Assembly (NCBI GenBank): GCA_964645555.1
Contig: CAZYBP010000001.1
Span: forward strand, 759 to 64,758
Source of the DNA: an uncultured Gammaproteobacteria bacterium
Lineage (GTDB): Bacteria > Patescibacteriota > Microgenomatia > Daviesbacterales > UBA10151
Direction of reading: 5' to 3'
Length of the DNA stretch: 64,000 bases
The translations under genes and the position numbers were made by a program. A model generated the notes under the pieces. The model saw nothing but the letters and a program-made list of their open reading frames with translations. It ran no database searches and had not been told where the DNA came from. Positions 26,960-44,528 of the stretch are shown here, piece after piece (within the stretch, counting starts at the first letter, position 1; the number at the start of each line of letters is the position of its first letter).

Positions 26960-27808
26960 ATGAATAATCAAAAACTTAAGTTTTTATACACTGATATTAA
27001 AGATTCGTACCTGGAATTATTGAAAGACACTTTAACTCATATAATTTATGGTAATTATGAGGTAGGTGCAACGCTCTCATCCCGTTTCCTGATCGAGAAA
27101 ATAATATCAAAGATATTGGGTCTAGTACATTTAAAATTAGTATTTAATAAACCTTTTAATCTCAAAGACAGAGAATATGGAAATGACTGGCCGCTAAGCG
27201 CTCACACAATGATTGGAAAAAGACGTCTAAATAATATTCAGTTCTGCATTGAGAATATCTTAAAGGAAAAAATCCCAGGAGATTTGATTGAAGCGGGCGT
27301 GTGGAGAGGAGGAGCCAGCATTTTTATGAAAGGAGTTTTAAAAGCATGCGGAGATAACAAACGGTGTGTTTGGTTAGCGGACTCGTTCCGGGGATTACCG
27401 CCTCCGGATATTAAAATGTACCCCCAGGATAAGGGAGATATTTTTTATCAAGTTGGTTACTTAGCTGTACCGGTTGAGGAGGTAAAAAATAATTTCAAAG
27501 CATACAACCTATTGGATGATAGGGTAAAATTTTTGATTGGATGGTTTAAAGATACATTGCCAAAAGCGCCTATAGGCAAACTTGCCCTTATCAGATGTGA
27601 TGGCGATATGTACGAATCAACTATGGATATATTAGTAAATTTATATCACAAACTTTCTACTGGCGGTTATGTAATTATTGATGACTATTATTATATTCCT
27701 GCATGCAAACAAGCAGTCGATGATTTTAGGAAAAAAAACAATATAAAAGACAAAATATTTGATATTACAGATATCAAAGGGGGAATATATTGGAAAAAAT
27801 TACAATGA
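26960..27808 (+). CDS. Macrocin-O-methyltransferase (TylF/MycF) family sugar O-methyltransferase
   Basis: GDLIEAGVWRGGASIF...WLADSFRGLP...CDGDMYEST...GGYVIIDDY reproduces the conserved blocks of TylF-family MTs. Confidence 0.8.
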   Translation: MNNQKLKFLYTDIKDSYLELLKDTLTHIIYGNYEVGATLSSRFLIEKIISKILGLVHLKLVFNKPFNLKDREYGNDWPLSAHTMIGKRRLNNIQFCIENILKEKIPGDLIEAGVWRGGASIFMKGVLKACGDNKRCVWLADSFRGLPPPDIKMYPQDKGDIFYQVGYLAVPVEEVKNNFKAYNLLDDRVKFLIGWFKDTLPKAPIGKLALIRCDGDMYESTMDILVNLYHKLSTGGYVIIDDYYYIPACKQAVDDFRKKNNIKDKIFDITDIKGGIYWKKLQ

Positions 27809-27827
27809 AAAGCCCAACATTAGAAAA

Positions 27828-29930
27828 CTATTCCCATGGCCAAATTTTAAATAATATATCAATTGTATAATCTCCCTTATTGTCTATCAACCAACCATTG
27901 GCAAACCCATTAACTAAAAAATGTTTGTCTACTACCTGGTTATCGATCCGTGCTTGCCAAAAACCATTGTATGTATCATTTAAAACTAATACAAAAGGTG
28001 TCCTTGCCCCTACTTGGACCTTGAAACGGGTGGGAGATTTCTTTTCAAACACCAAATCAACTGAAGAATCTGAATTTTGGCTAAGCTCGCCTGAAGAGCC
28101 GATAGACTGGTAATTTTCTGTATCGACAAAAGCAGCCTCAGTTGTATCAAACCCGCCGCTGCTTATACTATTTAATGCCTGATCAATGGAATCAAATTCT
28201 GCCAAAGATGTCACTGCGAAGATTTCCGGCTTAACAATGCTTTTTTCTAAAGTGTAAACAGTTAAAGGCCCGAACTCTGCATCCTTAGTAATTTCCCGCC
28301 ACTGGTCTATTTTGACTGTATTTAAATCCAACTGAGGATAAATCATATCACGGTGCAAAATAATATGATCAACTCCCAAAAGTCCTAATGTCCTTGGTAA
28401 GAAATTCTGGGAGAGGTATTTGGGGATTAATATATAGTAGTTGTTAAAAGTAGGTACTGTTGAGCGGGAGACGTTTTGTGAGTCAAACAGATTTTCAGCA
28501 GGGTCCTGTCCAATATAACCCCATGAATATTTTAATAATTCTGCCTGTACTGAAACAGGCAGATGAAAAATTCTTTGGCTTGAATTTGAGTTCAAATAAT
28601 CATTAGCCTGGGTATAATACGGAGGAATTGTCAGCCTGTCTTTAGAAGGGAATATTCTACCATTCCACATCGGATAAACTAAAATGCCATATAATAAGAC
28701 TATCAAAAAAACTCTTAATACCCGGCCGCTTTTTCCGGTAAATTTCTTAAAAATGTAATTCAAACCAAGTGCAAAAAAGACTGAGTAAGGCAAAAGGAAA
28801 ACTAATCAAAATTTCTCATAGGGGTTTCTCAAAGCTGCGCTGAATGGGAATGTTGAAAAGATCACAGAAAAAAATTGGTATCCCAAAGGAAAGTTTGAAC
28901 CCTTACTGACAAACCAGCCAATCAGTAATAAACTAATTAAATATTTAAAATTTTTTTGGGTCTTTTCCTTTACAATACCCAGTATAACAATAGCCAAAAC
29001 AACTAAACTTATTAAGTAACTAAAGAAATTATTATAGAACTCAAACCATCCGGTACTTAAAGAGCTTCCCTTTTCAAAAAAAGCTTTCTGGCGCAGCATT
29101 AAAATATCGGTAGTTCCAAAGTATTTACTTACACCTATTAGTGACTCACGGTGTATTCTCCATTCCTCTGAAAACTTAGCTAAGGTAGCTCCCTGTGCAG
29201 TTGACTTGTGAATTAAAGGATAAATCCACCAGGTGTTGACTAAAACTGTCACAATAACCGTGAATATACACTTTAATAAAAGTTTTAATAAATAAGTTTT
29301 ATTTTTTCTATTTTGAATAAATTTAATAAGGGCATAAATACCTGCCACTGTTAGGTAAACAAACAAATATGCAGGATGGGAAAAAGCATGCGAGAATACT
29401 GTCATGCTTGCAGCAATAAAAATTAGCCAATAAATTTTACCCTCGTCCAACCATTTTATCCAAAGAAAGATAAACAGTGGCAGGTAAGCCCAGGGAAACA
29501 TGCCTTGATAAATGTTCCTTTTCCAAACCTGGGTCATGGAGTATAGATTAAGTAAGTAAAAAAAACTTCCTAGTATAGATATTAGCTTACTTTGTCCAAA
29601 ACCTTTGTAAAGCAAAAGGTACATAAAGACTACACCTGAAAACATGATTATCCAATATGAAAGTGCCTGAATCAAAAAGGGCGCAAATCCGGCCTTTTGA
29701 AACAAGCTCAAAAATGTCAGATAGGGAAATCTTACAAATTCAAAAATATTTACGCTACCTGTACCAGAAGGATACCAACTGCTAGAAAAATATTTTGCAG
29801 TTCTTTCAAAGTTAACAAAAGATAAATTCTCCTCACTATTGTTTGAAACAAAAGTTTTTGTCGAGAACCAGGAAAATATGATTATGAAAGTCACAAAAAA
29901 TGCAAGCAGTAAGAATGATCTGGTCTTCAT
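27828..29930 (-). pseudogene. Family-A membrane protein paralog (shortened) interrupted by in-frame TGA at a conserved Gly codon
   Basis: ORFs 28806..29930 and 27828..28793 are in the same frame. Sequence reads ...RNPYEKF-TGA-LVFLLPYS..., where intact paralogs have RNPFEK(F/I/T)-G-(F/L).... The C-terminal part keeps the FANGWLIDNKGDY motif but lacks the final TM anchor. Confidence 0.55.
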
Positions 29931-31178
29931 TTAAAATTGCAATATTGTACGGGTTGATAAAACTCTTTGTATTTCCTCTTGGCTTCTTTTAATCTCCCTC
30001 AAAATAATCTTGTGCGGTACTAAAACCACCAAAAGGTCTTTACCCAAACAAAGATTCAGTAGAGTCTTCGGATATTTTAAAGCGGAAACTAACGGATCAA
30101 AATGAGAAACAGTAATACCCCTCTTTTTTAATATTTTAACTACCTTAATTGCAGGACTCTCTCGGGTATCAGTAGAATCAACTTTATATGATGCTCCTAA
30201 AACTAGTACTTTAGGCTTTTTAATACCTCTTAGCTTGCTCGCTATGCGTTCTGCAATGTTAGCCGGCACTTGATCGTTAATTTTCCTTGAGGTTGAAATT
30301 AATTTTGAGTTTATCTGATCCACCTCATAAATGAACCAGGGATCTATAGGGATACAGTGTCCTCCGACGCCAATACCAGGATTTAAAATATTGACCCGTG
30401 GATGTTTGTTGGCCAAAGCAATTACTTTTCGGGCTTCTACACCTAAATTTTTCGCGGTTTGGGCAAACTCATTTGCCAAAGCAATATTTACATCTCTAAA
30501 AGAGTTTTCCATCAATTTGCAAAGTTCCGCACTTACTATATCTGTTTTGTATATGTTCCCTTTGACAAAGGACTTGTAAACTTTCTCAGCAAGCTGGCAG
30601 GATTTCTCATCTACACCTCCGATAATCCTGTCATTATGGACAATTTCATAGTAGATATTTCCCGGTAAAATCCGTTCCGGGCAATGCGCTAGGGAAATAT
30701 CTTTACCGGCAATAAGTCCGGTTTTTTCCAGAATTGGTATTGCTAAATTGTTACAAGTATTAGGAGGAATTGTGGATTCAATAATCACCAAATCACCTTT
30801 TTTTAAAAATGGTATGGTTGCCTCTAAGGCTTTTTTCACAAAAGAAAGATCTGCCTTTTTTTTGTTATGAAGCAGCGGGGTTGGAACTGTTATGATAAAA
30901 GTATCTGCTTGAGTCGGAGTCTGCCTTAAAAACAAATTTTTCTTTACTTTAGGGTTTTTTAATAAACGCTGCAGTTGGCTTTCCTGAACTTGAGGCGGCA
31001 ATAAACCATTTTTTAAACCGTCAATTACCTTCCTATTAATATCTACCCCAATAACTTTGTAGCCCGCTTTGGCAAGAAGCAAGGCTGCAGGCAAACCTAC
31101 CACCCCTAAACCCAAAACTACAACATTACTTTTTTCCATATACCTCTCTTTGCCATTCAATTGTTTTCGGTATTCCAA
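29931..31178 (-). CDS. Nucleotide-sugar dehydrogenase (UDP-N-acetyl-D-mannosamine dehydrogenase WecC-like / Ugd family)
   Basis: N-terminal Rossmann motif VVVLGLGVVGLPAALLLA, catalytic GGHCIPIDP, about 415 aa. The start may be the internal Met (MEKSNVVV...). Confidence 0.7.
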   Translation of the reverse strand: MEYRKQLNGKERYMEKSNVVVLGLGVVGLPAALLLAKAGYKVIGVDINRKVIDGLKNGLLPPQVQESQLQRLLKNPKVKKNLFLRQTPTQADTFIITVPTPLLHNKKKADLSFVKKALEATIPFLKKGDLVIIESTIPPNTCNNLAIPILEKTGLIAGKDISLAHCPERILPGNIYYEIVHNDRIIGGVDEKSCQLAEKVYKSFVKGNIYKTDIVSAELCKLMENSFRDVNIALANEFAQTAKNLGVEARKVIALANKHPRVNILNPGIGVGGHCIPIDPWFIYEVDQINSKLISTSRKINDQVPANIAERIASKLRGIKKPKVLVLGASYKVDSTDTRESPAIKVVKILKKRGITVSHFDPLVSALKYPKTLLNLCLGKDLLVVLVPHKIILREIKRSQEEIQRVLSTRTILQF

Positions 31179-32055
31179 CAGACAAGGGTGTCATACTTGC
31201 ATGCTTTAAATCCTTTACCGCCTTTTTTATATTGGATTTTTTGTCTTTTGTGTTGTGTTTTTCAAACTGTACGTATTTAACAAGTTTATCTGTTTTACCC
31301 AAATACGCAAGTATCATATCGGATAAACTTTTAATATCGTGATACTGCGTTCCGGCAATATTATAAACCTCACCGGGTTTGAAATTCTTAACAATGTTTG
31401 CCAAAGTTTGGACTGTATCATCTATATAGGAAGAGGTCCGGTGGTGATTAAGATACACTGTATAGGGCAAATCAAAAAGAGCCTTATAGATAAATTGGCA
31501 TATTACACTACGGTACTCCGAAAAGTATTCCCCCGGGCCATAAGTATTAAAGAGGCGAACTCGGACAGTTTCTGTCCCGAATCTATCTGCAGAGTTTAGA
31601 ATCTGCATCTCATTTACCCATTTCGAAATAGCATAATCGTTCATTTGCCTGATTGGATGCTTACTTATTACATCCTCCCCCATTACATCCGGCCAATCTC
31701 CATACACCTCACTGCTGCTTGCAAAAATCATTTTAAATTTATTTTTCTCCTGAAATCTTAAGATGTTTTTAGTACCTATTGCATTACTTTTCCAAAGCCG
31801 TCCGTAGTAATCTTCACCGTTATGTCTTCCAAATTCAGCAGCCAAATGGTAAACAAAATCAAAGTCCGATCTCTCAAACAAATGTTCAACCTCACGGTAT
31901 TCACTCACATCGCAACGTATATAATTTGGTCCCCCGCTGTGCAAAAGATCACATACCCAAACTTCATGCCCCCCGTCACGCAGTAATTTGACTAAAGGAG
32001 CGCCAACAGCTCCTAATCCTCCGGTTACCAAAATTTTTAGTTTCTTTTTAGACAT
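31126..32055 (-). CDS. NAD-dependent epimerase/dehydratase (extended SDR)
   Basis: ILVTGGLGAVGAPLV glycine-rich NAD motif, 309 aa. Confidence 0.65.
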   Translation of the reverse strand: MSKKKLKILVTGGLGAVGAPLVKLLRDGGHEVWVCDLLHSGGPNYIRCDVSEYREVEHLFERSDFDFVYHLAAEFGRHNGEDYYGRLWKSNAIGTKNILRFQEKNKFKMIFASSSEVYGDWPDVMGEDVISKHPIRQMNDYAISKWVNEMQILNSADRFGTETVRVRLFNTYGPGEYFSEYRSVICQFIYKALFDLPYTVYLNHHRTSSYIDDTVQTLANIVKNFKPGEVYNIAGTQYHDIKSLSDMILAYLGKTDKLVKYVQFEKHNTKDKKSNIKKAVKDLKHASMTPLSVGIPKTIEWQREVYGKK

Positions 32056-33214
32056 AATTTAAAACCCTTGATATATTCTTATCAAATAATTTACCACAAT
32101 CAAACTGACTAACAAAATTTAAAGCATTTTCTCTGTACTCTTTTAATAATTTCCTATCAGATAGAAGTTTAATTACCGCCTTTGTTAAATCCTCTTTTTT
32201 ATAATTAACAACTAATCCTGACCTGGTTTTAATAATCTGTTTACTATAAGAAACAGCACAGGTAGTGATAACCGGCATACCCATTAACATATAATCTTTT
32301 ATTTTACCGGGATCGCCGTTTTTTACCCTGTCGTCGGTAATTTTAGTATTGAAAGTGGCAATACCTAAGGCTCCGTCAGACATGCACTCTTCAAGTATTT
32401 TTCTGTCTTTTACCCAACCATAAAATTTTACGCAACCGCCAACCTTAAGTCTTTGTACTTCACTTTCCAAATGCGCTCGATATTGCCCGTCGCCAAAAAT
32501 TTCTAAAACTGCTCCGGGGATTTTTTTAACTATTTGGGGCATGGCATTGATTATCAAATCAACTCCCATCCAATCAAAAAGAGACCCCCTATAAACAATT
32601 TTTTTTGTGTTTATTTTATTAAATGGTAATCTTTTAGTTTTATTAACCCAGACACAGATGGGAAAAACATACTGTTTGGCATCTCTTTTTAATCCCATCC
32701 TTTTTTCTCTTGCATCAATCATATATTCTGAAACATTCCAGGTTTCATCCGCATACTGGACACAAATCTTATCAAATTGGAAATAAAGCCAATTTAAAAA
32801 TTTATTATCAAATCTGGTAGGCTCATAATCAACCGGGTGATAAATAACTTTCCTTATTTTTCCCATTTTTTTCAGAAGCAATGCTACTAATACATTAATA
32901 TTATTTATTCCAAAAAAAGCATCCCAAATACCTTCATACTTTAAACACCAAAGAAATGTATATACCATATCTTTTAAATGAAGTAGCGGTCTCGGCATAA
33001 CCCAATGAAATGCATTTTTCTTTATGATTAATTTACTGTTTTTAAAATATTCAAACCGCGAACTTCCTTTATAGCTTTCTTTATTCTCAAGTAACGGATG
33101 ACCTATTAGGAGTAATTCCGTGGAGTATTTCTCCAGCAGATATTCTTTAATGTGTTCACCGATGTAACAAGGCAAAGTCTCATGGTAAGCAATAACCACT
33201 CTATATTTTTTCAT
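32048..33214 (-). CDS. Glycosyltransferase, GT-B fold (GT4-like)
   Basis: C-terminal domain of GT4 type (…EIFGDGQYRAHLESEVQRL…GMPVITT). Starts MKKYR with the shared 5' cassette. Confidence 0.6.
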   Translation of the reverse strand: MKKYRVVIAYHETLPCYIGEHIKEYLLEKYSTELLLIGHPLLENKESYKGSSRFEYFKNSKLIIKKNAFHWVMPRPLLHLKDMVYTFLWCLKYEGIWDAFFGINNINVLVALLLKKMGKIRKVIYHPVDYEPTRFDNKFLNWLYFQFDKICVQYADETWNVSEYMIDAREKRMGLKRDAKQYVFPICVWVNKTKRLPFNKINTKKIVYRGSLFDWMGVDLIINAMPQIVKKIPGAVLEIFGDGQYRAHLESEVQRLKVGGCVKFYGWVKDRKILEECMSDGALGIATFNTKITDDRVKNGDPGKIKDYMLMGMPVITTCAVSYSKQIIKTRSGLVVNYKKEDLTKAVIKLLSDRKLLKEYRENALNFVSQFDCGKLFDKNISRVLNYV

Positions 33215-33290
33215 AAAAATTCAAGATACTTCTTCTATTTTTTCATAAAAATTCAAGATTCTTCTTCTATTTTTTCATAAAATTCAACTA
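33206..33290. repeat. Tandem 32-nt repeat (about 2.6 copies) spanning the wecB stop / GT4 start junction
   Basis: The unit ttttttcataaaaattcaagatWcttcttctattt occurs at 33206-33240 and 33238-33272, with a partial third copy to 33290. On the coding strand each unit carries ...TAGAAGAAG.ATCTTGAATTTTTATGAAAAAA. The copies encode both the C-terminal YEKIEEES of the epimerase and the MKK start of the next gene. Confidence 0.6.
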
Positions 33291-34344
33291 ATGTTTTTAC
33301 TATTAGTTGGCCTGAATTACCTTTACCAAAAACGTTTTTCTTCCAGTAAACCTTTCCTTTTCTATATGCATCAATTGCCTTCTTTAATTTATCTTTGTTT
33401 AAACCAACCAAAAAATTGGCAGTTAAAGTCTCTGGCCTTTCGGTAGATTCCCTTAAGGTAATGAGCCATTTTTTCAATATATATGCCTCTTCCTGAATAC
33501 CGCCCGAATCTGTCAAGATAATATGCGAGAAGTTTATCAAAGTAAGCATATCTAAATAATTTATCGGTGGAAATGTTTTTATTTTCTTGTCCAATTTAAT
33601 TTTATTTAATTTCAAACGCTTATATGTATGGGGATGTATCGGCCAAATAATTTCCCTGTTTAAAAAGCTTATTGCATATTCAAACAATAAAATAAGCTGC
33701 TTAAGACGATTTATATCGTCGACATTTTCTGTACGGTGTGCAGTAACCAGAATATAATTATTTTTTTTCAAACCTAACTTTTCTAAAATATCAGACTTTT
33801 CTCCAGCATCAAAGTGTTTTCTCAAAGCATCAACAATAGTATTACCCGTGACAAATATCCGTTCTTTGGCTATACCATCACGCAGTAAGTTTTCTTTTGT
33901 ACCTTTTGTTGGAGCAAATAATATATCACTAATTTTGTCGGTAATAATTCTGTTTATCTCTTCAGGCATTTTATTATCAAAGCTTCTAAGTCCTGCCTCA
34001 ACATGCGCTACTGCTATATGTAGCTTTTTGGCAGCCAGTGACCCTGCCAGCATTGTATTAGTATCCCCATGAACAACTAAAATCTTCGGTCTCTCTTCTT
34101 TTAAAACCCTCTCCACTTCTATCATAATTTTTCCTGTTTGCTCGGCATGGGAGCCTGAACCAATGTTAAGTGTATAGTTAGATTTGGGAAGAATTAAATC
34201 ATCGGTGATATTTTTATTAAGCTCATCAGAATAATGCTGACCGGAATGTATTAAAATATACGGCAATTTTTTTAGCTCTAATTCCTTAATGACAGGAGCC
34301 AGTTTTATAAACTCAGGCCTGGTCCCAAAAAGTACCGCAATCAT
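33253..34344 (-). CDS. wecB: UDP-N-acetylglucosamine 2-epimerase (non-hydrolysing; WecB/MnaA family)
   Basis: MIAVLFGTRPEFIKLAPVI...IHSGQHYS...HVEAGLRSFD, near-diagnostic for the family. Confidence 0.85.
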   Translation of the reverse strand: MIAVLFGTRPEFIKLAPVIKELELKKLPYILIHSGQHYSDELNKNITDDLILPKSNYTLNIGSGSHAEQTGKIMIEVERVLKEERPKILVVHGDTNTMLAGSLAAKKLHIAVAHVEAGLRSFDNKMPEEINRIITDKISDILFAPTKGTKENLLRDGIAKERIFVTGNTIVDALRKHFDAGEKSDILEKLGLKKNNYILVTAHRTENVDDINRLKQLILLFEYAISFLNREIIWPIHPHTYKRLKLNKIKLDKKIKTFPPINYLDMLTLINFSHIILTDSGGIQEEAYILKKWLITLRESTERPETLTANFLVGLNKDKLKKAIDAYRKGKVYWKKNVFGKGNSGQLIVKTLVEFYEKIEEES

Positions 34345-34379
34345 AAATGGTATTATACATTAACAATAGAGGATATAAT

Positions 34380-36716
34380 ATGCTCTCCATGATACCTTTA
34401 CTGTATCTAATTTTATTAACAGTTACTCTCATCGGCACTGTATTATCCCGAAGCCTCATTGATGAAAAAAGACTTTTTATTAATATTCCTGTAGGGATGA
34501 TTTTAGGGACTAGCCTCTATATTTTTTTACTGAATATATTTTCAAAGTTTTTTCCGGGTCAGATGGGCATCATTTTTTCCACAATCAGTCTATTGCTGAT
34601 AGCAATATTTACTTCCTTTTTCCACTATAAAAAAATTATTAATGTTAAATGGCCAAAGCTTCTAAATATATTACTTCTTCTGGTTATAACAATTCCAGTT
34701 ATTTATTTTGCAAGACTCAAGATGACTTCAGTTTTTCCCGTAGCAGATTCTGACATGCAGTGGGCTTATGCTGCCAGTTTCACAAGAGGCAATTATCCGC
34801 TAAAAGTTCCCTGGCAACCTGATTTGACTCCAAATTATCATCTTGGGGCATATTTTTTTGAAGGAGCATTATTGACTCTTACCGGCTTACCTTTAATAAC
34901 TATACACTCTGTGTTAAATGTTTACTTTTTAATAGCGGGAGTTTTATTTGCAATTTTTCTTTTTTGGGAAAAAAACCGATTTCAAAACATTTGGCTTATT
35001 TTGGCTTCCATCGTAACTTATATATCCTTTGGAGTATTAATATTAATATTACCAAGTCAAAATTTTTTTCAGGTTTTAGATATCCACTCTCTCTTTAATG
35101 CAATTACACAACTTCCCTATTTGTGGGCAAAAGGAACTGCAGGGGCAGCTTTAGTTGACCTCAATTCATTGAGTTATCTGCCTGCCCGTTCGCTTGGTAT
35201 TGGGTTGGCTTTTTTAGCTTATTATTTTACTTTCATACCCTTTAGAAACTCAAAAATAAAGATTTTGTCCTTCGTTTTACTTTTTTCTGTTACTGCCTTG
35301 GTTGAGGAATCGGTATTTCTACCGTTATTTTTAACCTTAGTGTCAATATACCTGCTATCCCTTTTACAATTCCTCCCCTCCCTTAATGATTTAAAAAAAC
35401 ATAGCAAAGGTTTATTAATAACAATTTCTGCCATAGCCGTTACCGTCTTACTACAAGGCGGATTTGTCTCGGATTTATTAACTCAAAAAGGCTCGGCTTA
35501 TAATATCCTCCTGCCTCTTTCTAAGTCTTTTTTGGACAGATTCCCTGCAAGTTTTTCTATAATGCCTTCAATCTCAACACCATATAATTTACTGATCCTC
35601 TCCCCATTTATTCTTTCAGTGATAGTTTTGGTTTATTCCATTTTCAAAAAAAGAAGAAACTTGGCCGTTTTCTGCCTTTTTTCTTTAGTTTCTCTTTTCT
35701 CCTATTTGACAATTGAATATAAATATTCTCCTACAAATAATATCAGGTTTTATAATTTTGCCTCCATTAGTTCAGGCCTAGCCTTCGTTTATTTTCTTTA
35801 TGATTTGATGAAGGATAGGTCTTTGTCAAAGAATCTTGTTGTGTTTTCCGTTTTAAGCTTTCTAATGCTTCCCTCATTTATACCGGAGATTATAAACCAG
35901 TCAAAACAACTTCAAACAGCCCGGATGAATGATAACCGCTCCAAAATATTAATATCTTCTCATCCTTTAACCCCTTTTGAAAAAATAAGTGATTGGGCAA
36001 ATAAAAATTTACCCCCGGATAGTAGGCTGGTAAGTATTGATACTGATATACCGTCTCCAAAACGGTCTGTGCAATTTCAATATAAAGGCCTATACACCAC
36101 TCTTGCCCCTCAATATATTCATACTACCCGTCCCGAACCAGGTACGGAGTATTTTGACCTCATATTGACCTTAAACCCTTCAATCCTCAAGCAAACAAAA
36201 ACGCAATATGTGTATATAGAATCAGAATCCGATGCATACAAACAACTGCCTAAATTTAGGAAAGATGAGCTGGAAGACGAAAACTATTTTGAAAAGTTAC
36301 AATCAGTGGATTACCAGGATAATCAAAAAAAGGAGATCTTTTTCAGATTATACAGGGTCCTCCCTCAATACTTAGATCCTCAAAGTGGCGTAAAAGAGAT
36401 TAATGAGGGAACATTAAGGACTTTAAACATTTTAATTCCTAACTTGTCTACTGTTTATATCTCAGATTATGGCGACCCGCCGCATTTTTCTTTTTGGTAT
36501 AGAATGGCCGTAGTCTTACAGTTAAAGGACAAACAAATCAGAAGAAATATCTCACAAACCGATTACCAGGCTATTGAGACTAACCTTATTTATACAACCG
36601 GAAATTCAAACCAAAGGTATGATTATTATATTTCAGCTCCCAATCAGAAGCCCTTCTTACCGGCAACACTTATCTGGTCAAATATTTATGCCTCGGCTTG
36701 GAAAATTGATGGTTGA
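34380..36716 (+). CDS. Family-C polytopic membrane protein with C-terminal soluble domain (GT-C-like candidate)
   Basis: About 12 TM helices. Conserved loop ADSDMQWAYAASFTRGN...WQPDLTPNYHLGAYFFEGAL is shared with 53137..55452. Start chosen at ATG 34380, preceded by AGAGGA. Confidence 0.6.
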   Translation: MLSMIPLLYLILLTVTLIGTVLSRSLIDEKRLFINIPVGMILGTSLYIFLLNIFSKFFPGQMGIIFSTISLLLIAIFTSFFHYKKIINVKWPKLLNILLLLVITIPVIYFARLKMTSVFPVADSDMQWAYAASFTRGNYPLKVPWQPDLTPNYHLGAYFFEGALLTLTGLPLITIHSVLNVYFLIAGVLFAIFLFWEKNRFQNIWLILASIVTYISFGVLILILPSQNFFQVLDIHSLFNAITQLPYLWAKGTAGAALVDLNSLSYLPARSLGIGLAFLAYYFTFIPFRNSKIKILSFVLLFSVTALVEESVFLPLFLTLVSIYLLSLLQFLPSLNDLKKHSKGLLITISAIAVTVLLQGGFVSDLLTQKGSAYNILLPLSKSFLDRFPASFSIMPSISTPYNLLILSPFILSVIVLVYSIFKKRRNLAVFCLFSLVSLFSYLTIEYKYSPTNNIRFYNFASISSGLAFVYFLYDLMKDRSLSKNLVVFSVLSFLMLPSFIPEIINQSKQLQTARMNDNRSKILISSHPLTPFEKISDWANKNLPPDSRLVSIDTDIPSPKRSVQFQYKGLYTTLAPQYIHTTRPEPGTEYFDLILTLNPSILKQTKTQYVYIESESDAYKQLPKFRKDELEDENYFEKLQSVDYQDNQKKEIFFRLYRVLPQYLDPQSGVKEINEGTLRTLNILIPNLSTVYISDYGDPPHFSFWYRMAVVLQLKDKQIRRNISQTDYQAIETNLIYTTGNSNQRYDYYISAPNQKPFLPATLIWSNIYASAWKIDG

Positions 36717-36732
36717 TGATAGTATATATAAA

Positions 36733-38151
36733 ATGAAAACTTATCAATTTGATGTAGTTATAGTTGGATCAGGACCTGCAGGAGTCCATGCTGCATACCC
36801 TTTAATTAAGGCGGGATTAAAAGTTGCTATTATTGACGGTGGTCTGGATAGCAAAAAGCAAGATAAGAAACTTAGCGATTTTTTAGATGTTCATTTCAGA
36901 GAAACAAGCAACGCGTACGATCTGATCAAACAAAGCAGTTATGTATTCAATAAAACCTACCAACTCCTAAAAATAAACAGTAATATCGAAATCATTCAAA
37001 GCTTAGCAAAAGGAGGATTGTCGCAACAATGGCATGGTATCAGTGATTTTTTCTCAAATAAGGAATTAGAAAGAATTGGACTACCATCAAACGAGATACA
37101 AGCTGAATATAAAGAGATAGCTAAACTTATAAAACTTAAATTGGAAGGAAATCTGGACTACCATGCTAAGGCACTTTTAAAAACTGCAGAGAGTAAGCCT
37201 AATCTTAAAGAGAAACTATACCGGGTCCCGCTCGCCTTTCCTTACCGAACCAGTTCTGATATTGAATATTTCAAAAAATTTAAAAACTTTACATATATCC
37301 CCAATCAATTAGTGTTTACAGTAAAGGATATTAAAACTTGTGTGAAAATTGAAAGCCGATCAATTAATAAACAATCTACACTACAAACTAAAGCAGGATA
37401 TGTAATTTTGGCAGCCGGCTCAATTAACACTACCAGAATATTACTAAGAAGCTTAAACCTATTTAACTACAAAACCACATTTTTAACTAAAGCTCATTAT
37501 ATTACCGCCTGTATGCATCCAAGGACTTTCTTACTCCGATCATCTGAAAAATACTTAAAAAAATCAGGATTAGGGCAACTTGTCATCGCTGATAAAAAAA
37601 TAGGTAAAGGAGTCGGTGCTTTTTTTATACAACTATATAGATTTAATCCGCTGGTGATACATAAAGTATTAAAGCATATTCCTTTACCCAAAATAATGGC
37701 ATTACCTCTAATGTCAATTTTTGCTCCCTTTTTAATGATAGCTGACATAAGATTTGCAGCTTCTGAATCGAAAAAGAGATTCTGTAGATTATTAAAAGAT
37801 GCCGATAAAAATGATGTTTTAGAAATTTCATTCCAAGAATCTTTAAAAGAAATGAAAAATCATGAAAGTGAGTTTGTCAAAATTTCCCGTCAGTTAAATT
37901 CCCTCGGGTTATTCCCTCTTAAGACGGTTAAGGACTACACCACCTCCCATTATGCCGGAGGGGTACCTTATATGAAAAATCCGGGTAAAATATCAGTTAA
38001 TTTAAACGGCAGGCTACACCAGGCAAACAGAATTTATGTTGCTGACTCTGCAAGTTGGCGGGCACTACCGGCTAAAGCACCAACCTTGACAATAATGGCC
38101 AACGCTGCCAGAATTGGTAAAAAAGTTTTAGCAAAATTAGCGTTACACTGA
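36733..38151 (+). CDS. FAD-dependent oxidoreductase (GMC-like)
   Basis: FDVVIVGSGPAGV Rossmann FAD motif at the N-terminus. C-terminal YVADSASWRALPAKAPTLTIMANAARIG resembles the GMC C-terminal signature. Confidence 0.5.
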   Translation: MKTYQFDVVIVGSGPAGVHAAYPLIKAGLKVAIIDGGLDSKKQDKKLSDFLDVHFRETSNAYDLIKQSSYVFNKTYQLLKINSNIEIIQSLAKGGLSQQWHGISDFFSNKELERIGLPSNEIQAEYKEIAKLIKLKLEGNLDYHAKALLKTAESKPNLKEKLYRVPLAFPYRTSSDIEYFKKFKNFTYIPNQLVFTVKDIKTCVKIESRSINKQSTLQTKAGYVILAAGSINTTRILLRSLNLFNYKTTFLTKAHYITACMHPRTFLLRSSEKYLKKSGLGQLVIADKKIGKGVGAFFIQLYRFNPLVIHKVLKHIPLPKIMALPLMSIFAPFLMIADIRFAASESKKRFCRLLKDADKNDVLEISFQESLKEMKNHESEFVKISRQLNSLGLFPLKTVKDYTTSHYAGGVPYMKNPGKISVNLNGRLHQANRIYVADSASWRALPAKAPTLTIMANAARIGKKVLAKLALH

Positions 38152-38174
38152 GTAATGTTCGCTATACTCAAATT

Positions 38175-39161
38175 ATGAAAAAAATTATTATTACAGGTGG
38201 CGCAGGTTTCATCGGCAGTAATCTGATTGATTCACTGTTAAAAGATAATCCCAGTATTCAAATCACTTGTATCGACAATTTCGATTCCTTCTATGGCAAG
38301 GATATAAAAATGCGCAATATAAAAAGACATCTAAGAAACCCTAGATTTAAACTGATAGAAGGAGATATACTCGATATTGACACTATAAAAAAACTTTACT
38401 CCGCAATAAAAAATAATCTAGATAAAAAAATTGACGCTATAGTGCATTTGGCGGCCAAAGTAGGAGTCAGGCCAAGTGTAGAAAATCCCGGAATCTATAC
38501 ACAAGTTAATATTGTGGGCACTCAAAACATGTTGGAATTGGCACGTCAGTTGCAATGTGAAAAATTTATTTTTGCTTCGTCAAGCAGCGTATACGGCTTA
38601 AACTCAAATTTCCCCTGGAAGGAAGAAGACCGTCTGCTTTTACCTGCCAGTCCTTATGCCCTTTCCAAAATTTCCGGAGAACTGCTTGGGTCTGTTTACT
38701 CTAGATTGTTCGGCATCCAGTTTATAGCCCTTAGACTATTTACTGTTTACGGTCCCAGACAAAGACCGGATTTAGCAATTCATAAATTCACAAAACTTAT
38801 CCTGCAAGGAAAACCCATTCATCTTTTTGGTAACGGAGAAAGCCTCAGGGATTACACTTATATTGATGATATTGTCAGAGGATTTAAGGCAGCGCTAAAT
38901 TATTCATCCTCAAAATATGAAATTATCAATTTAGGCAATAACAAACCTATCAAACTAATCGAGCTTATATCTCTACTGGAAAAAGTGATAAAAAAGAAAG
39001 CAATCATTAAAAAAAGGCCAAATCAGGCAGGAGACGTACCTCTGACTTTTGCTGATATAAGCAAGGCTCAAAAGCTGCTGGGGTATCTGCCAAAAAATAA
39101 TGTAAAAGCCGGTCTGCAAAGATTTTTCAATTGGTTTAAAAAACAAAATATTCAATTATGA
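38175..39161 (+). CDS. NAD-dependent nucleotide-sugar epimerase (UDP-glucuronate 4-epimerase-like extended SDR)
   Basis: IIITGGAGFIGSNL, catalytic YALSK, and TVYGPRQRPDLA resembling the TVYGPWGRPDMA block of UDP-GlcA 4-epimerases. Confidence 0.6.
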   Translation: MKKIIITGGAGFIGSNLIDSLLKDNPSIQITCIDNFDSFYGKDIKMRNIKRHLRNPRFKLIEGDILDIDTIKKLYSAIKNNLDKKIDAIVHLAAKVGVRPSVENPGIYTQVNIVGTQNMLELARQLQCEKFIFASSSSVYGLNSNFPWKEEDRLLLPASPYALSKISGELLGSVYSRLFGIQFIALRLFTVYGPRQRPDLAIHKFTKLILQGKPIHLFGNGESLRDYTYIDDIVRGFKAALNYSSSKYEIINLGNNKPIKLIELISLLEKVIKKKAIIKKRPNQAGDVPLTFADISKAQKLLGYLPKNNVKAGLQRFFNWFKKQNIQL

Positions 39162-41014: not shown

Positions 41015-41075
41015 ATTAATGAATCTCCCCTAACTTATGTCATGGTATCTTCTTGATTCTTGCCTCCGGCAGAAA

Positions 41076-41933
41076 TCAATAAAAATTAAATCTTCTTAAG
41101 AAATCAAAAATTAAAAATCTTAGCCATACAGGAACCAAACCAATACTTAACTCCTGTAAAAAATTATAAAGCTTATCAGATGGTGTCATGTTATATCCAA
41201 GTATTAAAACAGCATTAAGCCGGATAAGGACGGTATTTTTAAGCTGTAAGTCATTTCTGGTTATAGAAACAGACTGTTTATGTATTCGGAGTTTTAATAA
41301 CGGCTTATTTAAGTTCATAAATTTTCCAATTTTACCAACCCGGAAATATAGTTCATAATCCTGACTTACTCTGATCACCTCATTATAGAGCTCTTTTTTT
41401 AAGACTTCAGCCTGCCAGATCGTTGCAGGATGCGCAAAGGGACTATACCTGAATAAATGTTTTCTTATGCTAATATCGTCAATATTGTATTTTCTTATAT
41501 GTTTATATCTTAACTTCGAATCACAGATTTCTATAAAGGATCCGCTCACCACTACATCCGGATTATCCTGCATAAGTTTTACTTGAAGCTTAAATCTCTC
41601 CGGGTAAGACCAGTCATCACCATCCATACGGGCAATATACTCTCCTTTTGAAAGTCTAATTGCCTTATTGAGGCTTTTACTCACTCCTAAATTATTTTTA
41701 TTTCTCCTTAGAACTATTCTTTTATCCTTTTTTTTGAAGGACTTTAAAATTTCAAAGGTACCATCATTACTGTCATCATCAATAATTATGAATTCAAAGT
41801 TGGCGTATGTTTGGTTCAAAATACTTTCTATAGCACTACCAACATATTGTTTAACATTGTATACCGGCATTATTACTGAAACCAAAGGTTTCCTATGATA
41901 TAACAGACTCTTTTTTTTATGCTTTTTTCTCAT
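41076..41933 (-). CDS. Glycosyltransferase family 2
   Basis: VSVIMPVYNVKQYV...IIIDDDSNDGT. Confidence 0.75.
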   Translation of the reverse strand: MRKKHKKKSLLYHRKPLVSVIMPVYNVKQYVGSAIESILNQTYANFEFIIIDDDSNDGTFEILKSFKKKDKRIVLRRNKNNLGVSKSLNKAIRLSKGEYIARMDGDDWSYPERFKLQVKLMQDNPDVVVSGSFIEICDSKLRYKHIRKYNIDDISIRKHLFRYSPFAHPATIWQAEVLKKELYNEVIRVSQDYELYFRVGKIGKFMNLNKPLLKLRIHKQSVSITRNDLQLKNTVLIRLNAVLILGYNMTPSDKLYNFLQELSIGLVPVWLRFLIFDFLRRFNFY

Positions 41934-41950
41934 AATTGATAATTGTGTGA

Positions 41951-42730: not shown

Positions 42731-42734
42731 GTGT

Positions 42735-43703
42735 TTAATATGTGATTGCTTTCTTATAATTTTTTGAAAACCATCTAACAGTTTCCTTTATCCCTTTTTC
42801 TATCGATGTTTTTGGCACCCAGCCCAAATGTTTTTTCATTTTGTCAATTCCAAAAATTTTATGCAAAGCTCCGTCAGCTTTAGAGGTGTTATAGACTAAA
42901 ATTCCTTTGTACCCGATTACTTTCTGGATTGTCTCAGCTAATTCTTTCACTGAGATACCTATTCCTGTCGCTATATTCATTGGCTCAATATCGTTGTATC
43001 TTTCTCCTGCACGCAATATTCCTTCAGCCCCATCTTTAACATATAACCAATCTCTTACCGGTTTACCCGTTCCCCATACTTCCACCTGGGGAATTCTATT
43101 TACTTTAGCCTCATATATCTTTTTTATTAATCCGGCAAGAGCTTTACTCTGCTCCGGGTTAAAATGCTCTCCCGGCCCAAACATATTGGCCATAATAAGA
43201 TGAATTGAATTAAAGTTATATTGTTTTTTTAATGCCAAACCGTACACAACTGAGGCCTTCCGTGAAAACCCGTAACTGAAAATGCTTTCATGAATTTGTC
43301 CATTCCAATAATCTTCCTCATTCATTTCACCCTCTTTCAAATATCCCGGATATGAGCATCCTGCCACAATATTAATAAATTTACCAACTCCTACTTTTTG
43401 TGCAACCTGCATAAGGTAAGACCCCATTAGTATATTATCCATAAATAATTCAGCTTGCCTGCCAACATGATAAGCAATCCCTCCCTGATTGGCGGCACAA
43501 TTAATAACAACATCTGGTTTTATTTTCTTAAAATATGACAGGCAAATCCCTTTTTTACGAAAATCTATTCCGTCTTTAGTTTTAGGAATAAATATTTTAC
43601 AAGGTACTTGTTTCAGGGAGTTGATGATATGAGAACCAAAAAAACCTCCTCCCCCGGTAATGACAATTTTTTTATGATCGTAAAACCCTCTATATTTTTT
43701 CAT
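42735..43703 (-). CDS. GDP-L-fucose synthase-like (GDP-4-keto-6-deoxymannose 3,5-epimerase/4-reductase family)
   Basis: The C-terminal half (WGTGKPVRDWLYVKDGAEG...TIQKVIGYKG...SKADG...GWVP) parallels E. coli Fcl blocks. Starts MKKYR with the shared 5' cassette. Confidence 0.55.
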   Translation of the reverse strand: MKKYRGFYDHKKIVITGGGGFFGSHIINSLKQVPCKIFIPKTKDGIDFRKKGICLSYFKKIKPDVVINCAANQGGIAYHVGRQAELFMDNILMGSYLMQVAQKVGVGKFINIVAGCSYPGYLKEGEMNEEDYWNGQIHESIFSYGFSRKASVVYGLALKKQYNFNSIHLIMANMFGPGEHFNPEQSKALAGLIKKIYEAKVNRIPQVEVWGTGKPVRDWLYVKDGAEGILRAGERYNDIEPMNIATGIGISVKELAETIQKVIGYKGILVYNTSKADGALHKIFGIDKMKKHLGWVPKTSIEKGIKETVRWFSKNYKKAITY

Positions 43704-43727
43704 AAAAATTCAAGGTCCTTCTTCTAC
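43688..43727 (-). promoter_or_regulatory. Single copy of the same start-region cassette upstream of the GDP-fucose-synthase-like gene
   Basis: 43691-43727 (tatattttttcataaaaattcaaggtccttcttctac) is identical to 33199-33235 over about 27 nt (ctctatattttttcataaaaattcaag) plus the ttcttcta tail. Both genes therefore begin MKKYR after the same 5' context. Confidence 0.4.
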
Positions 43728-43761
43728 CCCATTATGCACTTAATTTTACTACAAAATATTT

Positions 43762-43790
43762 TTGATACAAGTGAAGATTTTAAATTAATA
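43762..43790 (+). promoter_or_regulatory. Candidate sigma70-type promoter for the GT2 operon starting at 43821
   Basis: TTGATA at 43762-43767, a 17-nt spacer, then TTAATA at 43785-43790, about 30 nt upstream of the ATG. Only a sequence-pattern match. Confidence 0.3.
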
Positions 43791-43820
43791 TATGTTAGAA
43801 TTAATCTTTAACAAAAGCCT

Positions 43821-44525: not shown

Positions 44526-44528
44526 ACT

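What the first reader, a model, noticed from the sequence alone, without database searches (positions are those of the whole stretch)
33199..33290. A 27-40-nt start-region cassette is tandemly repeated across one gene junction and reused in front of an unrelated gene about 10 kb away
The sequence ctctatattttttcataaaaattcaag..ttcttcta is the reverse complement of ...TAGAAGAAG.A.CTTGAATTTTT-ATG-AAA-AAA-TAT-AGA-G. It occurs about 2.6 times in tandem with a 32-nt period at 33206-33290. There it supplies both the last 9 codons and TGA of the UDP-GlcNAc 2-epimerase and the first codons (MKKYR) of the GT4 gene, with a tiny MKK-stop uORF in between. It occurs again as a single copy at 43691-43727 in front of the GDP-fucose-synthase-like gene, which also begins MKKYR. 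Two unrelated enzymes sharing an identical 5' context points to a portable translation-initiation/promoter cassette, gene conversion between loci, or a recombination site used to shuffle modules.
Basis: seen in the sequence. Interest (0 to 1): 0.6.

Follow-up and report, generated by a model that had tools for sequence, protein, structure and literature searches.

The report
Duplicated gene-start patch shared by two genes
A 32-41-base piece of DNA that carries a start codon has been duplicated in tandem in front of one sugar-pathway gene and also copied into the start of an unrelated gene 10 kb away, replacing that gene's original start; it is a tidy scar of small DNA rearrangements, not a new kind of mobile or regulatory element.

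Summary
A 32-nt unit (minus strand TAGAAGAAGNATCTTGAATTTTTATGAAAAAA) occurs twice in tandem at 33206-33269, behind an older third copy of the start region at 33268-33288. An exact 27-mer (40/44 nt in all) recurs at 43683-43726; chance expectation is 0. The source is an uncultured Candidatus Daviesbacteria. Three assemblies give the identical array.

Six orthologous epimerase-GT4 or GT4 start regions in relatives lack the array. That junction is very plastic: stop-to-start spacing is -14, -14, -4, +12 and +31 nt in relatives, and +38 here. The MKK[YF][RK] start is native to GT4.

In the GDP-fucose-synthase-like gene it is imported. Removing a 41-nt block (43686-43726) restores ATG GGG TTT TAC (MGFYDHKK), the family-typical start. 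The old ATG GGG survives as a fossil that now runs straight into TAG.

The head is shared by three lineages (86-89% identical), so the import is old. Yet the two loci in this genome are 27/27 identical, where orthologues differ 5/27. That requires later exchange or constraint.

I found no promoter, SD, RNA structure or Rfam match, and no related copies in public collections. Best reading: tandem duplication plus non-allelic copying of a start region. It works as the start codon and leader. It is not a portable cassette. Direction of transfer and the origin of the GAAGAAG spacer are unresolved.

The parts
33253..34344 (-). UDP-GlcNAc 2-epimerase gene (363 aa). Its last residues ...LVEFYEKIEEES* are encoded by the repeat array. 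Stop TGA is at 33253-33255.
   Evidence: PF02350, E=1e-101, domain ends at residue 352. ORF. A TATAAT box at 34352-34357 lies 7 nt before the ATG.
33268..33288 (-). Oldest copy of the start region (GTTGAATTTTATGAAAAAATA), now read in the epimerase frame as V-E-F-Y-E-K-I. It contains a dead start, ATG AAA AAA TAG, at 33267-33278.
   Evidence: Sequence. Relatives L021 (...YLYEKI*) and L019 (...KNEKI*) end their epimerase by reading the live GT4 start tATGAAAAAATTTAG in the same frame, a 14-nt overlap.
33238..33269 (-). Tandem unit 1 (32 nt): TAGAAGAAGAATCTTGAATTTTTATGAAAAAA. It supplies epimerase codons E-E-E-S and the stop TGA, and a dead start (mini-ORF ATG AAA AAA TAG, 33235-33246).
33206..33237 (-). 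Tandem unit 2 (32 nt): TAGAAGAAGTATCTTGAATTTTTATGAAAAAA. It differs from unit 1 at one base. It contains the working GT4 start codon (33212-33214) and its 20-nt leader.
   Evidence: The GT4 N-terminus MKK[YF][RK]VVIAYHE is conserved in homologues.
32048..33214 (-). GT4-type glycosyltransferase gene (388 aa), downstream partner of the junction.
   Evidence: PF00534/PF13692. Homologues.
43686..43726 (-). 41-nt block TAGAAGAAGGACCTTGAATTTTTATGAAAAAATATAGAGGG. It equals the 32-nt unit (2 mismatches) plus GT4 codons 4-5. It sits inside the 5' end of the fcl-like gene and carries that gene's working ATG (43701-43703).
   Evidence: Deleting it restores MGFYDHKKIV, which aligns with L014 MGYYDNKKIV.
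43724..43732 (-). Fossil start of the fcl-like gene: ATG GGG followed at once by the block's TAG.
   Evidence: L014 has ...cataaaATGGGATATTAC at the same place. 118 of the 120 listed homologues, plus P0241 from the 90% cluster, show that only three lineages carry the MKK head.
42735..43703 (-). NAD-dependent epimerase / GDP-fucose-synthase-like gene (322 aa), starting MKKYR+GFYDHKKIVITGGGG.
   Evidence: PF01370. Homologues.
43743..43757 (-). Upstream block ATTTTGTAGTAAAAT, conserved in the window, L010 and L014. It is probably the -10 region of the fcl-like operon promoter, and ends 10 nt before the fossil ATG. The promoter role is inferred.
   Evidence: Alignment, coordinates.

Best explanation
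What it is. This is a scar of small DNA rearrangements at the 5' ends of two genes in one glycan-biosynthesis cluster. The organism is an uncultured Candidatus Daviesbacteria (CPR).

Epimerase-GT4 junction. A 32-nt unit holds a stop (TAG), 20 nt of A/T-rich leader, and the first three GT4 codons (ATG AAA AAA).
- The unit is present twice head to tail.
- In front of it sits an older copy of the same start region, now translated as the epimerase's last residues (YEKI...).
- Only the last ATG opens the GT4 frame. The two upstream ATGs are dead starts (MKK-stop).

Distant locus, 10.5 kb away. The same unit plus GT4 codons 4-5 (41 nt) lies between the ancestral start of the fucose-synthase-like gene (ATG GGG) and its ancestral third codon. 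That gene now initiates at the imported ATG and begins with GT4's MKKYR. Its old ATG reads M-G-stop.

How it arose.
- Shown: the leader plus MKK[YF][RK] is native to GT4 and foreign to the other gene.
- Inferred: it was copied by a non-allelic event, either a templated insertion or short-patch gene conversion using very short homology.
- Inferred: the tandem copies came from slippage or unequal exchange between the repeated start regions.
- Shown: the import is old (it is shared by three lineages), while the copies in this genome are almost identical. A later exchange between the loci, or sequence constraint, is therefore required.

Function (inferred). The last copy at each locus is simply the working start codon with an unstructured, SD-less, A/U-rich leader.

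Side effects.
- Four extra residues on the epimerase tail.
- Stop-to-start spacing changed from an overlap to +38 nt, with a 3-codon mini-ORF in between.
- Four extra N-terminal residues on the fcl-like enzyme, plus a 2-codon upstream ORF.
For: - Anatomy and statistics.
- The array is lineage-specific. Six relatives' junctions or GT4 starts (L011, L017, L018, L019, L020, L021; GT4 70-85% identical) have no 32-nt array and no GAAGAAG spacer.
- The junction is plastic. Spacing is -14 (L019, L021), -4 (L020, with a 7-nt ATGAAAA duplication), +12 (L011, with degenerate 27-nt and 16-nt direct repeats of tail and start) and +31 (L017).
- The start is native to GT4. MKK[YF][RK]VVIAYHE is conserved, and more distant homologues keep ..KKYRFCIVTYE. 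The L017 leader plus start matches the 27-mer 26/27, although CDS identity is only 74%.
- The head is foreign to the fcl-like gene. Among the 120 listed homologues only P0001 and P0002 carry it, and P0241 from the 90% cluster also does. The others start M[GKND][YF]Y.. or MNYLKYF...
- Removing 43686-43726 gives cataATGGGGTTTTACGAT = MGFYDHKK, aligned to L014 cataaaATGGGATATTACGAC = MGYYDNKK.
- Junction microhomology: GT4 ATATAGAGTGGTT versus ancestral fcl ATAATGGGGTT, 8/11 (read from the sequences).
- Timing. The head-bearing proteins form a clade at 86-89% identity, with headless sister P0003 at 81%. The window versus L010 differs 5/27 in the 27-mer and 18% over the CDS (38% at third codon positions). 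The two window loci differ 0/27 and the units differ 1-2/32.
- Not a mobile or regulatory family. Only unrelated chance hits appear in the GTDB genome, JGI metagenome and IMG/VR scans. No promoter-like or terminator-like site lies in the tract. Fold z-scores are -1.0, 0.06 and -1.05. No Rfam hit.
Against: - Direction and number of transfers between the loci are not resolved. The locus-2 block is old, while the locus-1 array looks young, which mildly favours a recent locus 2 to locus 1 copy. X plus MKKYR, however, is native to GT4.
- The 11-13 nt GAAGAAGNANC spacer has no detectable source in the window or in the relatives' loci. It is not significantly similar to the native epimerase tail (p=0.63) or to the L017 spacer (p=0.64).
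- All three differences among the units fall on just two positions, and the window-L017 27-mer is 26/27. Both could mean functional constraint rather than recency.
- The rest of the source genome could not be searched, so copy number outside the 64 kb is unknown.
- The assemblies may all derive from one or two read sets, and a k=31 assembler could collapse extra identical units.
Confidence: 0.65

Rival explanations
1. Shared cis-acting translation module kept by selection. On this view the TAG-N20-ATG AAA AAA unit is a functional restart or initiation element for SD-poor, often leaderless-type CPR messages. A ribosome that terminates at the preceding tiny ORF (ATG AAA AAA TAG, or ATG GGG TAG) or at the epimerase stop reinitiates 20 nt downstream. 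Having the same element on both genes would co-ordinate GT4 and fucose-synthase-like expression.
For: - Identity is 27/27 between the loci against 5/27 between orthologues, and differences among the units fall on two positions only.
- A related leader, CT[TA][GTA]AATTT(TT)ATGAAAAAAT[AT]TA[GA]AG, appears wherever the start is free-standing: L017 and L018 GT4, and L010 fcl.
- In all three window copies the unit begins with a stop that closes a 2-3-codon ORF.
- SD-like motifs are rare in the window (11/50), and 9/50 genes have a -10 box 6-12 nt from the ATG.
- Coupling by reinitiation tolerates spacings up to about +40 nt, but tolerates overlaps poorly (review PMC12548453).
Against: - There is no significant RNA structure and no Rfam match.
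- The element is absent from GT4 in four of six relatives, where the genes simply overlap or carry other spacers.
- It is found before no other gene in the window.
- A stop at the start of the unit is an automatic consequence of duplicating a segment out of frame.
- No expression data exist.
Confidence: 0.15
2. Recombination substrate for module gain or loss. The two direct repeats (27 bp exact, 40/44) bracket 10.5 kb of glycan genes: fcl-like, SDR, GT2, AsnB-like, three plus-strand genes and the epimerase. They might mediate RecA-dependent deletion or duplication of that block, which would fuse the fcl-like promoter to GT4.
For: - The repeats are direct and on the same strand.
- From general knowledge, 27 bp is about the minimal efficient length for RecA recombination in E. 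coli.
- The cluster's content differs among relatives.
Against: - No relative shows the predicted deletion joint.
- The closest relative has the same gene order without the repeats.
- Both near-identical assemblies carry the full 10.5 kb.
- Differences among relatives do not map to the repeat positions.
Confidence: 0.05
3. Phase-variable tandem tract. Slippage in the number of 32-nt units would switch or tune expression of surface-glycan genes, as in contingency loci.
For: - The location is a polysaccharide gene cluster, and the units are near-identical.
- Other small duplications occur at the same junction in relatives.
Against: - The epimerase stop lies in the first unit and the GT4 ATG in the last. 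Any copy number of one or more leaves both ORFs intact, and only the spacing (6+32n) changes.
- Copy number is identical in three assemblies, including two strains that differ by 4 SNPs in 12.4 kb.
- There are only two full units.
Confidence: 0.05
4. Assembly artefact or chance low-complexity match.
For: - The source is a metagenome-assembled genome.
- The core 22-mer is A/T-rich and turns up by chance in unrelated genomes, either as coding LNFYEKI or at MKKI/MKKY starts.
Against: - Zero matches are expected in shuffles.
- The sequence is identical from different assemblers and assemblies.
- The array (85 nt) is shorter than a read.
- Both ORFs are intact, and their N-termini match homologues.
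Confidence: 0.02

Closest known systems
Short tandem duplication by replication slippage or unequal exchange between short direct repeats
   Same: The copies are head to tail with a fixed 32-nt period and are near-identical. The array is absent from orthologous sites. The flanking sequence already held short direct repeats (TTGAATTTT, ATGAAAAAA). Relatives show smaller duplications at the same junction.
   Different: The unit is not a simple copy of the neighbouring native sequence, because its GAAGAAGNANC part has no local source. The same unit also exists 10.5 kb away.
Templated insertion / template switching, or short-patch ectopic gene conversion between non-allelic sites
   Same: A 38-41-nt tract identical to another locus on the same replicon is inserted at a precise point. 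One junction has microhomology (8/11, GGG duplicated). Orthologues lack the tract.
   Different: Donor and recipient are non-homologous genes. The patch carries a start codon in frame, so the recipient gene survives with a chimeric N-terminus. The left junction has essentially no homology. There is evidence for more than one exchange over time.
Translationally coupled or overlapping gene junctions (ATGA-type overlaps, termination-reinitiation) and minimal upstream ORFs
   Same: Relatives have -4 and -14 overlaps at this junction. In the window, tiny ORFs end 20 nt before the real ATG, a spacing compatible with reinitiation (PMC12548453).
   Different: No experimental evidence exists here. The arrangement looks like a by-product of duplication rather than a conserved design.
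Contingency-locus repeats in surface-polysaccharide genes (phase variation)
   Same: A tandem repeat in a glycan gene cluster.
   Different: The unit is 32 nt and there are only two full units. Copy-number change does not shift either reading frame. No length variation appears among assemblies.
Dispersed intergenic repeats (REP/MITE-like) and integron attC sites
   Same: A short sequence recurs at gene boundaries.
   Different: There are only two loci. It has no inverted-repeat structure and no stable fold. No copies were found in public collections, and there is no associated recombinase signal.

Membership tests
Tandem duplication (slippage / unequal exchange) | Head-to-tail copies with constant period and high identity | tested here: met
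   Period 32, 96% matches. Units differ at 1 of 32 positions.
Tandem duplication (slippage / unequal exchange) | Single-copy state at the orthologous site in relatives | tested here: met
   L011, L017, L019, L020 and L021 have no array.
Tandem duplication (slippage / unequal exchange) | The unit is derivable from the local pre-duplication sequence | tested here: inconclusive
   The 21-nt start-region part is local. The 11-nt GAAGAAGNATC part has no local or orthologous source.
Templated insertion / ectopic gene conversion | Tract identical to a second locus, bounded by unrelated sequence | tested here: met
   27/27 exact and 40/44 overall, and the flanks do not align.
Templated insertion / ectopic gene conversion | The recipient's orthologues lack the tract, and its removal restores the ancestral sequence | tested here: met
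   Deleting 43686-43726 restores ATG GGG TTT TAC, aligned with L014. 118 of the 120 listed homologues lack the head.
Templated insertion / ectopic gene conversion | The tract is native at the donor locus | tested here: met
   The GT4 N-terminus is conserved. The L017 leader plus start matches 26/27.
Templated insertion / ectopic gene conversion | Paralogous copies are more alike than orthologous copies (recent exchange) | tested here: met
   0/27 differences between paralogues versus 5/27 between orthologues. CDS divergence from the L010 lineage is 18%.
Templated insertion / ectopic gene conversion | Microhomology at both junctions | tested here: inconclusive
   The right junction has 8/11 with GGG duplicated. 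The left junction has at most 2 nt (read from the sequences).
Phase-variable contingency repeat | Copy-number change shifts a reading frame or promoter spacing | tested here: not met
   The epimerase stop is in the first unit and the GT4 ATG is in the last. No promoter lies in the tract.
Phase-variable contingency repeat | Length polymorphism within or between populations | tested here: inconclusive
   Three assemblies are identical.
Mobile or dispersed repeat (MITE/REP/attC-like) | Many copies in the genome or in related genomes | tested here: not met
   There are two loci in 64 kb. The relatives' loci have none. Collection scans gave only unrelated hits. The rest of the source genome was not searchable.
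Mobile or dispersed repeat (MITE/REP/attC-like) | Terminal inverted repeats or a stable hairpin | tested here: not met
   Fold z-scores are -1.0, 0.06 and -1.05. No inverted repeat in the tract is listed.
Sigma-70-type promoter | -35/-10 hexamers with 16-18 nt spacing inside the tract | tested here: not met
   No site lies within 33199-33290 or 43686-43727.
Shine-Dalgarno ribosome-binding site | GGAGG-like motif 5-10 nt upstream of the ATG | tested here: not met
   The leader is aagaag(t/a)atcttgaattttt. Only locus 2 has AGGA, at -16..-13.
Known structured RNA (Rfam) | Match to a covariance model | tested here: not met
   No hit at E<=1 over 32500-44500.

The most novel reading that the evidence does not exclude
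The 5' ends of two non-homologous genes evolve in concert. On this reading a TAG-N20-ATG-AAA-AAA 'restart module' is repeatedly exchanged between the GT4 and fucose-synthase-like genes, and duplicated. It is kept nearly identical because it acts as a termination-reinitiation relay in an organism with few SD sites and many leaderless-type messages. It would thereby couple the expression of two branches of one glycan pathway. The hints are these. The head is old in three lineages, yet it is 27/27 identical to GT4 in this genome. The L010 fcl leader best matches a GT4 leader variant from another lineage (L018, 21/22). Substitutions fall on only two positions of the unit.
Probability: 0.1. Interest if true: 0.6.

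Novelty: new member of a known kind. Interest (0 to 1): 0.3.

Why it matters
This is a clean natural example of how a bacterial gene can lose its own start codon and survive, because the inserted patch brings a new in-frame start from an unrelated neighbour. It also shows how an overlapping stop/start junction can be pulled apart by duplicating the start region.

For annotation, it warns against two readings. Identical 5' contexts in unrelated genes need not mark a regulatory element. C-terminal tails and N-terminal heads next to such junctions can be rearrangement by-products.

For CPR biology the value is modest. The finding adds evidence that gene starts in these SD-poor genomes tolerate such rewiring. 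It opens no new system.

Tried and rejected
- Widespread cassette. Exact scans with the 22-mer core in GTDB genomes and JGI metagenomes, and with the 32-nt unit in IMG/VR, found only four unrelated sequences (coding LNFYEKI, or MKKI/MKKY starts) or nothing.
- Promoter or terminator in the tract: none.
- RNA structure or a known RNA family: not significant, and no Rfam hit.
- Alternative genetic code (TGA read as sense) extending the epimerase. Rejected because long ORFs are intact under table 11, and TGA ends 17 of 50 ORFs.
- A longer homology (about 60 nt) between window locus 2 and the L017 spacer appeared in a local alignment. The part outside the 27-mer is not significant (p=0.64).
- Origin of the GAAGAAG spacer from the native epimerase tail: not significant (p=0.63). 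There is no other copy in the window or in the loci.
- A third protein search, using only the first 60 residues to find more head-bearing homologues, returned nothing.
The direction of the recent exchange therefore stays open.
- The exact look-up of the window's fcl-like protein failed at first. The window comes from a second assembly whose protein (P0242) differs by one residue from P0001.
Full report
**1. What is in the sequence**

Coordinates below are window coordinates, read on the minus strand. The region reads:

...tta GTTGAATTTTATGAAAAAATA | GAAGAAGAATC TTGAATTTTTATGAAAAAATA | GAAGAAGTATC TTGAATTTTTATGAAAAAATA | TAGAGTGGTT...

Tandem Repeats Finder gives 33204-33287, period 32, 2.7 copies, 96% matches, score 154, the top score in the window.

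Written in register, two 32-nt units lie at 33238-33269 and 33206-33237. Each reads TAGAAGAAG[A/T]ATCTTGAATTTTTATGAAAAAA, and they differ at one base. They follow an older 21-nt copy of the start region at 33268-33288, which has four T's where the units have five.

The exact 27-mer CTTGAATTTTTATGAAAAAATATAGAG occurs at 33199-33225 and again at 43688-43714, with 0 expected by chance. The similarity runs over 44 nt at 91%. With one gap it covers TAGAAGAAG..CTTGAATTTTTATGAAAAAATATAGAG(T)GGT. No other dispersed repeat of this size exists in the 64 kb. The spacer-plus-leader motif occurs only at these three places.

**2. Genes**

- 33253..34344 (-) is a UDP-GlcNAc 2-epimerase (PF02350, E=1e-101). 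Its Pfam domain ends at residue 352, so the tail VEFYEKIEEES lies outside the domain.
- 32048..33214 (-) is a Glycos_transf_1 (GT4-type) enzyme starting MKKYRVVIAY.
- 42735..43703 (-) is an NAD-dependent epimerase starting MKKYRGFYDHKKIVITGGGG. Some sources name its homologues GDP-L-fucose synthase.
- The epimerase stop TGA (33253-33255) lies in unit 1.
- ATG AAA AAA TAG occurs twice: at 33267-33278 inside the epimerase tail, and at 33235-33246 in the intergenic gap.
- The third ATG (33212-33214) opens GT4.

**3. Source and reliability**

The proteins belong to Candidatus Daviesbacteria.

- The window matches NCBI GCA_016187055.1 contig JACPKN010000001.1 at 100% over 6.5 kb, and at 4 SNPs over 12.4 kb.
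- The window itself corresponds to a second assembly with an 86-kb contig. Its fcl-like protein (P0242) differs by one residue from P0001.
- An independent Logan assembly of SRR12113424 is 100% identical over 3.1 kb, including the array.

All three versions have the same copy number. Read-level variation could not be examined.

**4. Not a widespread element**

Exact scans with the 22-nt core in GTDB species genomes and JGI metagenomes returned four unrelated sequences. In two of them the core is simply coding sequence for LNFYEKI. In the other two it sits at MKKI... or MKKY... gene starts. The 32-nt unit has no match in IMG/VR. The source genome itself is not in those collections, so copies outside the window remain untested.

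**5. The epimerase-GT4 junction in relatives**

Six relatives with GT4 at 70-85% identity were recovered (sequences). None has the array or the GAAGAAG spacer. The junction differs in every lineage:

| Locus | Epimerase tail | Stop-to-start spacing | Note |
|---|---|---|---|
| L011 | ...LVKFLK* | +12 nt | spacer is a degenerate repeat of both the tail (16/22, period 27) and the start (ATGAAAGATTTTAG vs ATGAAAAAATTTAG, 12/14, shuffle p=0.02) |
| L017 | ...LVNFLKIR* | +31 nt | |
| L020 | not recorded | -4 (ATGA overlap) | 7-nt duplication of ATGAAAA (p=0.015) |
| L019 | ...KNEKI* | -14 | the epimerase reads through the live GT4 start tATGAAAAAATTTAG |
| L021 | ...YLYEKI* | -14 | same read-through of the live GT4 start |
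| L018 | no epimerase upstream | not applicable | |

The window's first copy, tATGAAAAAATA read as Y-E-K-I, is the same configuration as in L019 and L021. The difference is that 64 nt (two units) now separate it from TAGAG.... I read it as a former GT4 start that has become part of the epimerase tail. This is an inference. An alternative is that it is a later copy fused into the tail.

**6. The start is native to GT4**

Close GT4 homologues start MKK[YF][RKS]VVI(A/T/G)YHETLPCY. More distant ones keep ..KKY[RN]FCIVTYE. L017 has gCTTTAATTTTTATGAAAAAATATAGAG, which matches the window's 27-mer 26/27 although the two GT4 genes are only 74% identical in DNA. At a background identity of 72%, P is about 0.002.

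**7. The start is foreign to the fucose-synthase-like gene**

Of the 120 listed homologues, only the window's protein and P0002 (86%, MKKFKGFYEH) have a four-residue head. P0241 (89%, MKKYRGFYDH) also has it. The remainder start M[GKND][YF]Y(x)NKKIV (318 aa) or MNYLKYFxGKKIV (321 aa).

In the window the sequence reads:

...gtagTAAAATtaagtgcataATGGGG | TAGAAGAAGGACCTTGAATTTTTATGAAAAAATATAGAGGG | TTTTACGATCATAAAAAA

Deleting the 41-nt block (43686-43726) gives ATG GGG TTT TAC GAT CAT AAA AAA = MGFYDHKK. This aligns with L014...gtagTAAAATatatccaaacataaaATGGGATATTACGACAATAAAAAA = MGYYDNKK.

The old start survives at 43730-43732 and now reads ATG GGG TAG. GGG flanks the block on both sides. The right joint shows 8/11 similarity between GT4 (ATATAGAGTGGTT) and the ancestral fcl start (ATAATGGGGTT). 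The block is therefore an insertion that brought its own in-frame ATG.

**8. Timing and direction**

The three head-bearing proteins are 86-89% identical to one another and about 81% identical to headless P0003. The simplest reading is one old import in their common ancestor.

L010, the DNA of P0002, has a diverged version (...gaactgaaatttATGAAAAAATTTAAAGGATTTTAC) and has lost the fossil ATG.

Between the window and L010, the 27-mer differs at 5 positions, the CDS by 18%, and third codon positions by 38%. Inside the window the two loci differ at 0 of 27 positions, and the three units differ at 1-2 of 32. Independent evolution since the old import is unlikely, since 0.81^27 = 0.003. Either the loci exchanged sequence again recently or the sequence is constrained.

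The array at locus 1 is young and lineage-specific, while the block at locus 2 is old. A recent locus 2 to locus 1 copy followed by one tandem duplication is mildly favoured. Local array formation followed by a locus 1 to locus 2 conversion is not excluded.

The 11-13-nt GAAGAAGNANC segment has no identifiable source.

**9. Function**

- No sigma-70-like site or terminator lies in either copy.
- GT4 sits in an operon whose first gene, the epimerase, has TATAAT 7 nt before its ATG.
- The unit has no GGAGG-type site at a normal distance.
- Predicted folding is no better than in shuffles: z = -1.0, 0.06 and -1.05.
- There is no Rfam match.

The copies therefore act, as far as sequence can show, simply as the working start codon with an A/U-rich leader.

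Consequences:
- The epimerase gains EEES at its tail.
- The epimerase-GT4 spacing is +38 nt, with a three-codon ORF placed 6 nt after the stop and 20 nt before the GT4 ATG.
- The fcl-like enzyme gains KKYR ahead of its Rossmann strand.
- The fcl-like message probably begins close to a two-codon ORF. The conserved ATTTTGTAGTAAAAT block ends 10 nt before the fossil ATG.

A review of translational coupling reports that coupling is best at -4 to +3 nt, persists with reduced efficiency to about +40 nt, and falls off faster with longer overlaps (PMC12548453). Moving from a -14 overlap to short termination-reinitiation hops is therefore plausible, but untested.

Changing the unit number leaves both ORFs intact, so the array is not an on/off frame switch.

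**10. Verdict**

The 'translation-initiation cassette' idea holds only in the sense that the tract supplies both start codons. The promoter and module-shuffling-site ideas are not supported.

This is an instance of known mutational processes, namely tandem duplication and templated non-allelic copying. It has an instructive outcome, start-codon replacement with a visible fossil. One open question remains: why are the copies so alike?

Noticed in passing
window 34352-34357 (-), 25363 (+), 38175 (+), 58284 (-), 62414 (+) and others: Nine of 50 long ORFs have a TATAAT/TATACT-type box ending 6-12 nt before the ATG, and only 11 of 50 have even a loose SD-like motif. Leaderless or very short-leader messages seem common in this Daviesbacteria genome.
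   Followed up: partly
L011 7014-7075; L020 about 25-45: At the same epimerase-GT4 junction, relatives carry their own small degenerate duplications. L011 has a 27-nt-period copy of the epimerase tail and a 16-nt-period copy of the GT4 start. L020 has a 7-nt ATGAAAA duplication. The junction is a recurrent hotspot.
   Followed up: partly
window 30818 and the whole window: The NCBI contig JACPKN010000001.1 ends at window position 30818, inside the UDP-glucose dehydrogenase gene, whereas the window runs on. The window comes from a second, 86-kb contig of a near-identical strain (4 SNPs in 12.4 kb, at 43180, 41352, 41349 and 38714).
   Followed up: yes
L010 742-772 versus L018 2131-2161: The fcl-like leader and head of the L010 lineage (AAATTTATGAAAAAATTTAAAG) best match the GT4 leader and head of another lineage (L018, 21/22). 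L019, from the same sample as L010, has a GT4 that also begins MKKFK. This is a possible sign of co-variation between the two gene starts. Whether these loci come from the same genome is unknown.
   Followed up: partly
L002 1164-1185; L003 128-149; L004; L005/L008: The 22-nt core recurs by chance in unrelated organisms (Paceibacterota, Micrarchaeota and others). There it is coding sequence for LNFYEKI or an MKKI/MKKY gene start, which shows how easily this A/T-rich string arises.
   Followed up: yes
window 36574-36716: The mechanical ORF 36574..38151 (TTG start) overlaps the end of the 789-aa membrane-protein ORF by 143 nt. NCBI calls a 472-aa product, so the real start is further downstream.
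   Followed up: no
window 38511-38545 and 49269-49303: A 35-nt inverted repeat at 77% complementarity, 10.7 kb apart. It probably reflects a conserved motif in paralogous sugar-nucleotide epimerase genes on opposite strands.
   Followed up: no
window about 27800-47600, also L011, L014, L017, L022: This stretch of the window is a dense glycan-biosynthesis cluster (GT2, GT4, several SDR epimerases, an asparagine-synthase-like gene, UDP-glucose dehydrogenase). Its gene content is reshuffled among Daviesbacteria relatives. For example, L017 has extra methyltransferase, GT2 and P-loop genes ahead of the epimerase.
   Followed up: no
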